Shown: positions 61,183 through 61,432 of the stretch, in pieces
How positions within the stretch are numbered: the first letter of the stretch is position 1
How the letters are laid out: each line of letters starts with the position of its first letter
Notes under the pieces: model-generated
What the model saw: the letters and a program-made list of their open reading frames with translations, nothing else
Told to the model about the DNA's origin: nothing
Database searches by the model: none
Virus record (IMG/VR): IMGVR_UViG_3300010354_000001
Location: 1 to 64,000 of that record
Length of the DNA stretch: 64,000 nucleotides
Strand: one strand, 5' to 3'
DNA from: a virus
Position numbers and translations under genes: made by a program

Positions 61183-61310
61183 TGAAGACATTTTGTTGTT
61201 TTTTGATTTGCCTTACCGATCGGCCACCACTCCTTGCGGAATGGGTTGGATTTGAACCAACATACACATCTTGTTTTTGTTTTTGTTTGTTGTGTTGCTG
61301 TCTGTCTTCA
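61183..61310 (-). ncRNA. ACAGCA-stem RNA 1 with circularly permuted tRNA domain (YrlA-like)
   Basis: TGAAGAC-AG-ACAGCA, A/C-rich linker, T arm GTTGG-TTCAAAT-CCAAC, CCATTCC-GCAA-GGAGTGG closed acceptor, D arm GCC-GATCGGTAA-GGC, linker, AT-GTCTTCA. Confidence 0.87.
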
Positions 61311-61318
61311 AAGAGAAT

Positions 61319-61432
61319 CGGACTTGACTCTCAGCTTCGCTGAGGGAGATTATCGGCTTCACAGAGTCTGCTTTTACTCTCGTATGAGTAAGTAGTCTTA
61401 TTAACTCTCCACCTACGCCCATCCTAGGCGTA
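61319..61432 (-). ncRNA. Stand-alone TnpB omegaRNA-like scaffold, copy B
   Basis: 82/84 identical to 12731-12814; 3' hairpin CTCAGC-GAA-GCTGAG, ends AAGTCCG; overlaps the DUF2828 stop codon. Confidence 0.75.

What the first reader, a model, noticed from the sequence alone, without database searches (positions are those of the whole stretch)
61299..61432. omegaRNA scaffold B fused to the DUF2828 stop codon, with its guide running into Y-like RNA 1
Seen: the last codons of DUF2828 (TAC GCC TAG) form the 5' strand of the scaffold's first hairpin, mirroring how tnpB overlaps its own omegaRNA. The predicted guide ATTCTCTTTGAAGACAGACA includes the 5' stem of RNA 1. Inference: either an omegaRNA remnant protects or propagates the DUF2828 locus as a homing cassette, or TnpB processing helps mature the RNA array. 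The guide and the RNA 1 stem would be mutually exclusive folds. This physically links the two RNA systems.
Basis: partly seen in the sequence, partly recalled or inferred. Interest (0 to 1): 0.75.

Follow-up and report, generated by a model that had tools for sequence, protein, structure and literature searches.

The report
Orphan TnpB guide RNA in phage
The flagged stretch is a genuine gene-less copy of the guide-RNA scaffold used by this freshwater phage's own TnpB nucleases. It was inserted recently, exactly at the stop codon of a Ro60-like gene, so its "guide" is simply the first 20 bases of the neighbouring Y-like RNA region; this is an interesting but essentially known kind of selfish element.

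Summary
Window 61432-61319 (-) is a 114-nt TnpB omegaRNA scaffold, and 61318-61299 is the sequence a guide would occupy. It is one of five homologous scaffolds in a complete 113,974-bp phage. Two overlap the 3' ends of intact tnpB genes and three (A, B, C) are gene-less. Three helices are 99% paired across copies, with 8 of 16 pairs compensatory. All copies stop being similar right after ...TCCG.

B lacks the left end and promoter that A and C keep. It is a recent insertion. Every DUF2828 homologue at 71-97.5% identity ends ...AIIKT*, and only the 97.9-100% subclade ends ...KTYA*. Removing 112 nt (61319-61430) restores ACA TAA.

DUF2828 folds like Ro60, and RNA 1 is a permuted tRNA-like (YrlA-like) RNA. 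Guide bases 8-16 form the 5' strand of its closing stem. The guides of other copies likewise cover gene starts or stops, so the overlap looks like a by-product of insertion into a tight junction.

One metatranscriptome contig links the scaffold's 3' part, the guide and all of RNA 1.

My best reading is a stand-alone omegaRNA, probably usable in trans by phage TnpB to cut insertion-free relatives (homing). Loading, TAM and cleavage are untested. I found no evidence that it matures the RNA array. Other follow-ups in this scan already reported sister copies A and C of this genome.

The parts
61319..61432 (-). Stand-alone TnpB omegaRNA scaffold B (114 nt): hairpin 1, P1/k-turn-like junction/P2, inner hairpin, terminal hairpin, 3' motif ...AAGTCCG
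   Evidence: BLAST and nhmmer homology to four other scaffolds, two of them at tnpB 3' ends. Covariation. Centroid fold. Weak Rfam RAGATH-18 hit at 61351-61415, 21.8 bits.
61414..61432 (-). Hairpin 1 (TACGCC-TAGGAT-GGGCGTA), which contains DUF2828 codons 485-486 and the TAG stop
   Evidence: Five of its 8 pairs have compensatory changes across copies.
61299..61318 (-). Guide-equivalent 20 nt (ATTCTCTTTGAAGACAGACA), which is the DNA that flanked the insertion. It consists of a 7-nt linker, the 5' strand of the RNA 1 stem and the start of the ACAGCA motif.
   Evidence: Similarity among the five scaffolds ends at 61319. This sequence has no second match in the phage. Stem pairing is shown.
61424..62884 (-). 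DUF2828/DUF7788 gene (486 aa) with a Ro60-like fold. Its last two codons and stop lie inside the scaffold.
   Evidence: Pfam. AlphaFold model pLDDT 87. Foldseek top hits are Ro60 1YVR, phage phiLo Ro60 9L5Y and Rsr 2NVO, E 1e-6 to 3e-8. C-termini of relatives.
61182..61311 (-). Y-like RNA 1: a 9-bp closing stem around a permuted tRNA-like module (T arm, closed acceptor-like hairpin, D-arm-like hairpin)
   Evidence: Fold (z -2.76). Alignment with RNA 2. No Rfam family reached E 10.
61056..61172 (-). Y-like RNA 2, same architecture as RNA 1 (approximate ends)
12697..12885 (-). Mini-element A: left end with a TATAAT-type promoter and leader hairpin, followed by a scaffold 94-98% identical to B. 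Its guide covers the DUF4815 start codon (12691).
   Evidence: Rfam RAGATH-18 21.4 bits; RNA-library contigs carry its leader.
7483..8655 (+). tnpB-1 (390 aa), RuvC D/E/D retained, 58% identical to tnpB-2 (which lies outside the window at G000 79560-80735, -)
   Evidence: Pfam
8547..8677 (+). The cognate scaffold of tnpB-1, a divergent homologue of B that ends ...ATTATTCCG

Best explanation
B is a young, stand-alone copy of the omegaRNA (guide-RNA scaffold) of the phage's own ISDra2-like TnpB elements.

Shown: it belongs to the A/B/C subfamily of gene-less copies, but unlike A and C it has lost or never had the left end with its promoter. It was inserted as about 112 nt at the TA|A of the DUF2828 stop codon, into the 7-nt gap that normally separates the Ro60-like gene from the first Y-like RNA. 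The gene gained two codons (Tyr-Ala) and now terminates inside hairpin 1.

Inferred: with no promoter of its own, B is transcribed by read-through from DUF2828 together with the RNA array. As in every TnpB element, the guide is whatever DNA follows the right end. Here that is the linker plus the 5' strand of the RNA 1 closing stem, so the overlap is a by-product of the landing site.

Mechanism I commit to (inferred, about 45% likely): TnpB-2, or TnpB-1, made elsewhere in the genome binds the scaffold and trims its 5' side from the DUF2828 mRNA. It uses the 20-nt guide to cut co-infecting relatives that lack the insertion, at the DUF2828/RNA 1 junction. Repair from the B-bearing genome then copies B and co-converts the Ro60-like/Y-RNA module. 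The phage's own copy is protected because the scaffold end, not a TAM, precedes the target.

Each primary transcript can yield either a guide of 16 nt or more or an intact RNA 1, not both.
For: Identity:
- Five homologous scaffolds exist; D and T1 overlap tnpB 3' ends.
- Helices covary.
- Sequence after ...TCCG is unique to each copy and matches only its own flank.

Nuclease available:
- Two tnpB genes are present. The best PDB match is ISDra2 TnpB (E 2e-69), and the RuvC D, E and D residues are kept.

Mobility of the family:
- A sister phage (L032, 87% identical) carries a tnpB-2-like element at a site that is empty here.

Recent, clean insertion:
- 484-aa homologues at 71-97.5% identity end ...AIIKT*. 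Only the 486-aa forms (97.9-100%) end ...KTYA*.
- Deleting 61319-61430 restores a 484-aa ORF ending KT-TAA.
- B has no left end or inverted repeat, and no sigma-70-like promoter lies on the minus strand between DUF2828 and the array.

By-product reading:
- The guides of A and D cover downstream start codons, and that of T1 covers a stop codon.
- DUF2828 loci in other phages have ACAGCA-type or T-loop RNAs directly after the stop codon without a scaffold.

Expression hint:
- In one metatranscriptome, a 226-nt contig with 0 mismatches spans 61393-61168. Coverage is confined to the scaffold and RNA 1; the CDS is not covered.

Persistence:
- B is at the same site in DNA contigs from three other studies. 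In two of them it has a different but still perfectly paired terminal hairpin.

Precedent:
- Stand-alone omegaRNAs work in trans (PMC10691335).
- TnpB makes omegaRNA by 5' processing of an mRNA (PMC10278001).
- TnpB homing has been described (PMC10690162, PMC13565253).
Against: - No evidence of TnpB binding, of a TAM next to the target in insertion-free relatives, or of cleavage.
- I could not obtain the DNA of the empty-site relatives.
- B's scaffold is only 79-85% identical to the one tnpB-linked copy of its type (D), so compatibility is assumed.
- In the naked transcript, guide bases 8-16 are locked in the 9-bp RNA 1 stem, which should lower guide availability.
- The copy is so young (94-98% identical to A and C) that its intact helices do not prove selection.
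- Without a left end, its route of arrival is unexplained.
- RNA contigs cannot show ends, strand or level, and DNA carry-over in that library is not excluded.
Confidence: 0.5

Rival explanations
1. Inert relic. B is a real omegaRNA-derived sequence that landed at the stop codon by an illegitimate or microhomology-mediated event, or by loss of the left end of an A/C-type mini-element. It is transcribed only as a passenger of the DUF2828 operon, is not productively loaded, and will decay. The overlap with RNA 1 has no consequence beyond a slightly longer leader.
For: - B has no left end, no inverted repeat and no promoter.
- The junction shares only short microhomology: native AAAACATA versus AAAAATA before hairpin 1 in copy C.
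- The guide is partly sequestered in the RNA 1 stem.
- The copy's youth is enough to explain its intact helices.
- The only cognate-type tnpB copy differs by 15-21% in its scaffold.
Against: - The scaffold is complete from hairpin 1 to the 3' motif.
- It persists at this site in metagenomes from at least four studies, 2017-2025.
- Its terminal hairpin was replaced by another perfect hairpin rather than eroded.
- It is present in an RNA library at higher contig depth than copy A, which has its own promoter.
- Stand-alone omegaRNAs are known to be used in trans (PMC10691335).
Confidence: 0.38
2. Co-opted RNA element. The scaffold, with or without TnpB, now serves the Ro60-like module. It might act as a processing site that separates DUF2828 mRNA from the Y-like RNA array, as a 3' stabiliser of the mRNA, or as a switch that controls how much RNA 1 is made by competing for its 5' stem strand.
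For: - The scaffold, guide and RNA 1 are contiguous on an RNA-library contig, while the CDS is not covered.
- TnpB can cut an mRNA at the 5' side of its omegaRNA (PMC10278001).
- The guide and the RNA 1 stem are mutually exclusive.
Against: - Relatives at 71-97.5% identity, and more distant DUF2828 phages, run the same gene-plus-RNA arrangement without any scaffold, so the module does not need it.
- The insertion is too recent and too narrowly distributed to be an integrated part of the system.
- Contigs cannot show RNA ends.
Confidence: 0.08
3. Not an omegaRNA at all: a generic phage intergenic repeat (terminator, REP-like or regulatory hairpin cluster) that only resembles one.
For: - Hairpin 1 followed by a T-rich run scores as a terminator on the opposite (+) strand.
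- The Rfam RAGATH-18 hit is below threshold.
Against: The same sequence forms the 3' end of two tnpB genes and of a third in a sister phage, with the reading frame of TnpB running through it. There is no T-run after the hairpins on the transcribed strand.
Confidence: 0.02

Closest known systems
Stand-alone (effector-less) omegaRNAs of OMEGA systems (Altae-Tran et al. 2021, as summarised in PMC10691335)
   Same: A scaffold homologous to that of a TnpB encoded elsewhere in the same genome, with no adjacent nuclease or transposase, followed by its own unique guide position. Such RNAs are reported to work in trans.
   Different: The described cases are 'evidently mobilized' units. B lacks the left end and promoter, is fused to the stop codon of an unrelated gene, and depends on that gene's transcript. 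It is in a lytic-type phage genome, and its guide overlaps a structured non-coding RNA.
ISDra2-type TnpB/omegaRNA (IS200/IS605; PDB 8EXA, 8H1J)
   Same: TnpB-2 matches ISDra2 TnpB at E 2e-69 with the RuvC triad conserved. The omegaRNA overlaps the 3' end of tnpB and reads out of the right end into flanking DNA.
   Different: The phage has no Y1 TnpA. The elements have 23-25-nt terminal inverted repeats, and one copy has an 8-bp direct repeat, which is not IS200/IS605-like. The scaffold sequence is found only in this phage lineage.
RAGATH-18 RNA / IS607 TnpB reRNA (Rfam RF03064; PMC11061315)
   Same: Shares the GUGGAG ... UGAAGC junction (a k-turn/E-loop-like internal loop between two helices), which gives the only Rfam hit for B and A.
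   Different: The score of 21.8 bits is far below the gathering score of 44.9. IS607 reRNAs lie wholly downstream of the CDS and go with serine-recombinase TnpA. Here the RNA overlaps the CDS, no serine recombinase is present, and the protein is nearer ISDra2 TnpB than the 384-aa chain 8IAZ (E 7e-39).
Free-standing homing endonucleases of T-even phages (e.g. SegB at the T4 tRNA gene region; reviewed in PMC13565253)
   Same: A nuclease system in a phage whose target is the allele of a co-infecting relative, with expected co-conversion of flanking markers. Here the flanking markers are a cluster of tRNA-like RNA genes.
   Different: Specificity would come from an RNA guide defined by the insertion itself (presence or absence of the element), not from protein recognition. 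Nothing has been shown experimentally here.
Ro60/Rsr with Y RNAs (YrlA), including phage Ro60 (PDB 1YVP, 2NVO, 9L5Y)
   Same: The neighbouring protein has the Ro60 fold. RNA 1 and RNA 2 have a stem plus a permuted tRNA-like module, as described for YrlA.
   Different: Pfam files the protein as DUF2828/DUF7788, and it has no sequence-level PDB match. The RNAs match no Rfam family. An omegaRNA inserted between gene and RNA has not, to my knowledge, been described.

Membership tests
TnpB omegaRNA (OMEGA guide-RNA scaffold) | Sequence homologous to the 3' end and right end of a tnpB element | tested here: met
   79-85% identity to the tnpB-2 3' end (D), and it aligns to the tnpB-1 3' end. nhmmer E 5e-32.
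TnpB omegaRNA (OMEGA guide-RNA scaffold) | Conserved structured scaffold followed immediately by a copy-specific guide equal to the flanking DNA | tested here: met
   All copies diverge right after ...TCCG. Each 20-mer matches only its own flank. Helices covary.
TnpB omegaRNA (OMEGA guide-RNA scaffold) | A catalytically competent TnpB in the same genome | tested here: met
   Two tnpB genes. The D/E/D residues align with the ISDra2 catalytic motifs.
TnpB omegaRNA (OMEGA guide-RNA scaffold) | The RNA is made and bound by TnpB; TAM-dependent cleavage of the guide's target | not testable with these tools
   The only evidence is an RNA-library contig spanning 61393-61168. No TAM could be derived from the flanks of the five copies.
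Stand-alone omegaRNA | No adjacent effector or transposase, while effector-containing loci exist in the same genome | tested here: met
   The nearest tnpB gene is about 18 kb away. No Y1 or serine recombinase is present.
Mini-element (MITE/PATE-like, both ends kept) | Left end / terminal inverted repeat present together with the right end | tested here: not met
   A and C share a left end of about 70 nt, and C has a 25-nt inverted repeat. B has none: the sequence upstream is bona fide DUF2828 coding sequence conserved in homologues.
RAGATH-18 / IS607 TnpB reRNA (RF03064) | Reaches the Rfam gathering score | tested here: not met
   21.8 bits (B) and 21.4 bits (A) against 44.9. Relatives gave no hit at E 1.
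RAGATH-18 / IS607 TnpB reRNA (RF03064) | Lies downstream of, and independent from, an IS607-type tnpB with a serine-recombinase TnpA | tested here: not met
   The cognate scaffolds overlap the tnpB CDS by about 100 nt. There is no resolvase-family gene. The protein is nearest ISDra2 TnpB.
Ro60/Y RNA module (context of the guide) | Neighbouring protein has the TROVE plus vWA Ro60 fold | tested here: met
   Model pLDDT 87, pTM 0.87. Ro60 chains are the top 13 Foldseek hits, E 3e-8 to 8e-5.
Ro60/Y RNA module (context of the guide) | RNA 1 matches a curated Y RNA / YrlA model | tested here: not met
   No Rfam hit at E 10 other than the tRNA. The resemblance is architectural only.

The most novel reading that the evidence does not exclude
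A promoter-less, left-end-less omegaRNA that rides on the transcript of an unrelated cargo gene is used in trans by a phage TnpB as an RNA-guided homing system between co-infecting phages. It would drive super-Mendelian inheritance of a Ro60-like/Y-RNA module. Production of the guide and of Y-like RNA 1 from the same precursor would be mutually exclusive, so that TnpB loading tunes Y-RNA output or the reverse.
Probability: 0.2. Interest if true: 0.7.

Novelty: new member of a known kind. Interest (0 to 1): 0.36.

Why it matters
If B is active, it would be a natural example of RNA-guided homing between phages (non-restorative transposon homing). That concept is discussed in reviews, but I found no demonstrated phage case in the searched literature. 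It would also show that a guide RNA can survive as a bare right end carried on another gene's mRNA.

B also marks a natural presence/absence polymorphism at a Ro60-like/Y-RNA locus that could be used in mixed-infection experiments.

If B is inert, it is simply a dated insertion scar. It is still useful for defining the minimal scaffold (114 nt) of this TnpB lineage and the native 7-nt spacing between the Ro60-like gene and its first RNA.

Tried and rejected
- **Left-end relic idea.** BLAST extends B-C similarity to 61461, which suggested that the last 12-20 DUF2828 codons are a relic of the element's left end. I rejected this: those codons (ENIVNDEKYAII) are conserved in all homologues.
- **RAGATH-18 membership.** Rejected; see the membership table.
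- **DNA of insertion-free relatives.**
  - The genome-contig scan found none.
  - Viral contigs returned only relatives at 42% or less.
  - The 'phages' collection gave no match.
- **Exact-pattern search for the scaffold core in viral contigs.** 0 hits.
- **Scaffold profile against 159 fetched loci**, including 69 bacterial and archaeal tnpB loci. Only this phage's own copies and sister phage L032 matched. The nearest cellular TnpBs are at most 44% identical, so there is no host clue.
- **More distant phage TnpBs (34-42% identity).** They carry a different, downstream omegaRNA.
- **Read laying.** No contig joined across the element, so no empty-site allele was seen in X2, X5 or X8. The DUF2828 CDS and RNA 2 have no cover in RNA run X15. 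Neither absence is evidence.
- **TAM inference from the left flanks of A, C, D, T1 and L032.** No consensus emerged.
- **12-nt identity CAGCGAAGCTGA** between B's terminal hairpin and the tnpB-1 scaffold. This is at chance level (E 0.69).
- **Tree of DUF2828 proteins.** Tips are unresolved. A single origin of the YA form is neither shown nor excluded.

Full report
**What is at the coordinates.**
All genes here lie on the minus strand. The 486-aa DUF2828/DUF7788 gene (61424-62884) ends TAC GCC TAG. These nine bases are the 5' strand and first loop bases of a hairpin, TACGCC-TAGGAT-GGGCGTA. Downstream lie:
- two RNAs with a closing stem around a T arm, a closed acceptor-like hairpin and a D-arm-like hairpin;
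- a tRNA-Ile(UAU)-like gene.

Corrected coordinates are scaffold 61432-61319 and guide position 61318-61299.

**It is a TnpB omegaRNA scaffold.**
- The window is the first 64 kb of a complete 113,974-bp phage record with terminal repeats.
- The 114-nt stretch has four homologues in that genome:
  - A, window 12816-12696 (-);
  - C, G000 87400-87520 (+);
  - D, G000 79667-79545 (-);
  - T1, window 8547-8679 (+).
- D overlaps the last ~33 codons and the stop of a 391-aa TnpB. T1 overlaps the end of a second TnpB that is 58% identical.
- A sister phage contig (L032) has a third tnpB-linked copy.
- With hairpin 1, P1 and P2 imposed on six sequences, 99% of cells pair and 8 of 16 pairs carry compensatory changes. 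No shuffle out of 500 reaches this, and slid controls pair at only 28-42%.
- B's centroid fold reproduces P1, the internal loop, P2 and the inner hairpin.
- The only Rfam signal is a sub-threshold RAGATH-18 match (21.8 bits against 44.9). RAGATH-18 is the core of IS607 TnpB guide RNAs (PMC11061315).
- The proteins are closer to ISDra2 TnpB (E 2e-69, RuvC D/E/D conserved), and the RNA overlaps the CDS. I therefore read that hit as a shared junction motif, not membership.
- All copies lose similarity immediately after ...TCCG. Each following 20-mer matches only its own flank. This is the signature of a guide defined by the insertion site.

**How B differs from its sisters.**
- A and C share ~70 nt upstream of hairpin 1: a left end with a TTAACA-N16-TATAAT promoter-like site and a leader hairpin. 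This left end is homologous to the one upstream of tnpB-2.
- C has a 25-nt terminal inverted repeat and an 8-bp direct repeat.
- B has none of this. The sequence upstream of B is genuine DUF2828 coding sequence.
- No sigma-70-like promoter lies on the minus strand between the gene and the RNAs, so B can only be made by read-through.
- The phage has no Y1 or serine-recombinase TnpA.

**The insertion is recent and clean.**
- DUF2828 homologues at 71-85% identity end ...AIIKT*...AIIRT* or ...AIIKL*.
- Within the 90% cluster, nine listed members (eight of 484 aa and one of 485 aa, up to 97.5% identical by position) end ...KT* or ...RT*. The five 486-aa members (97.9-100% identical) end ...KTYA*.
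- The tree cannot resolve these tips.
- Removing 112 nt (61319-61430) gives a 484-aa ORF ending KT followed by TAA. This leaves 7 nt between the stop codon and the RNA 1 stem.
- Such tight gene-RNA spacing is seen in other DUF2828 loci. The ACAGCA motif lies within 50 nt of the stop codon in 7 of 34 loci, and T-loop motifs lie within 500 nt in 13 of 34.
- The family is mobile. L032 carries a tnpB-2-like element between sequences that are adjacent here, at window 21854/21862.

**Context.**
- The DUF2828 model (pLDDT 87) matches Ro60 over its full length, including phage phiLo Ro60 and D. radiodurans Rsr.
- The 'two RNA systems' are therefore real neighbours: a Ro60-like/Y-like RNA module and a TnpB guide.
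- Guide bases 8-16 (61311-61303) pair with 61190-61182 to close RNA 1, and this holds in the 401-nt fold. A guide of 16 nt or more and an intact RNA 1 thus cannot be cut from one molecule.
- The overlap is not special, however. A's guide covers the DUF4815 start codon, D's covers the start of an RNase T-like gene, and T1's covers a stop codon. These elements sit in tight junctions of a compact genome.

**Population and RNA data.**
- The stretch occurs in freshwater, lake and river metagenomes of 13 studies.
- In three other studies, DNA contigs carry B at the same site.
- In two of those, B's terminal hairpin is the D-type TTAACGTATGTTAA version instead of CTCAGC-GAA-GCTGAG. It is a different but still perfectly paired hairpin.
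- In one metatranscriptome, a 226-nt contig with no mismatch runs from 61393 to 61168. The upper limit is the k-mer limit set by the A/B repeat. The contig therefore covers the scaffold's 3' part, the guide and all of RNA 1.
- Contigs of copy A carry its leader.
- Only 11 of 30 bins, all over the scaffold and RNA 1, have cover.
- Contigs cannot show ends, strand or level, so this is only a hint of co-transcription.

**Mechanism.**
- Shown: identity, copy family, intact nucleases, recent insertion at the stop codon, guide equals flank, stem overlap.
- Inferred:
  - read-through transcription;
  - 5' trimming by TnpB, as reported for its own mRNA (PMC10278001);
  - use in trans, as for known stand-alone omegaRNAs (PMC10691335);
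  - cutting of insertion-free relatives followed by recombinational copying, i.e. homing (PMC10690162, PMC13565253).
- I give this functional reading about 45%, an inert young relic about 38%, and co-option by the RNA array under 10%.

**Comparison and novelty.**
- Stand-alone omegaRNAs are known, and phage-borne tnpB is known (for example cyanophage A-1(L), bioRxiv 10.64898/2026.02.14.705889).
- New here are details: a right-end-only copy fused to a cargo gene's stop codon, in a phage, aimed at the first bases of a Y-like RNA.
- Other follow-ups of this scan already described sister copies A and C in this genome as known-kind guide-only elements.
- Verdict: a real feature, a new member of a known kind, of moderate interest.

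Noticed in passing
window 7422-7444 and 8655-8677: tnpB-1 is bracketed by a perfect 23-nt inverted repeat (CGGAATAATCCCTTCATAGACAT and its complement). The right arm is the last 23 nt of its omegaRNA scaffold. C and D have similar 15-25-nt inverted ends, and C is flanked by an 8-bp direct repeat (TAGCATAC). This is unlike IS200/IS605 or IS607 ends, and no transposase gene is in the phage.
   Followed up: partly
window 21854-21862 vs L032:2432-3705: A sister phage contig (87% identical flanks) carries a 1.27-kb tnpB-2-like element where this phage has only AGTAACA. The insert carries 10 extra nt on the left and 18 on the right that are not in the empty site, so the exact ends and any target duplication are unclear.
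   Followed up: partly
window 61320-61345 (B terminal hairpin): Two natural alleles of B exist. This window and run X8 have CTCAGC-GAA-GCTGAG. Runs X2 and X5 have the D-type TTAACGTATGTTAATGGGAC segment at the same site. This could be gene conversion between scaffold copies or a hairpin swap.
   Followed up: partly
window 12677-12696; G000 79527-79546; window 8678-8697: The guide positions of copies A, D and T1 cover, respectively, the DUF4815 start codon, the start codon of an RNase T-like exonuclease gene, and the stop codon of ORF 8690-9139 (-). All copies sit exactly at gene boundaries.
   Followed up: yes
window 60969-61046 (-): tRNA-Ile(UAU)-like gene (Rfam 53.6 bits) with 13 nt where the model expects a 7-nt anticodon loop. 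It is the last-but-one unit of the RNA array after the Ro60-like gene.
   Followed up: no
window 58904-59602 (-) and 58423-58911 (-): An RlaP-family nucleotidyltransferase ('RNA repair pathway' Pfam family) and a Dam-type methyltransferase lie about 2 kb downstream of the Ro60-like/Y-like RNA cluster, on the same strand.
   Followed up: no
window 61414-61441 (+): Read on the + strand, hairpin 1 followed by TGTTTTAATT scores as an intrinsic terminator. It could stop antisense transcription into DUF2828.
   Followed up: no
window 61213-61422 (-): The 69-aa ORF starting in the hairpin 1 loop is the leftover TnpB C-terminal reading frame (…GGELIRL…KADSVKPIISL) running on into RNA 1. It is not a likely gene.
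   Followed up: partly
L036:1630-2293: A distant phage tnpB locus fetched for comparison has two Rfam group I intron hits (83.8 and 54.4 bits) just upstream of its tnpB.
   Followed up: no
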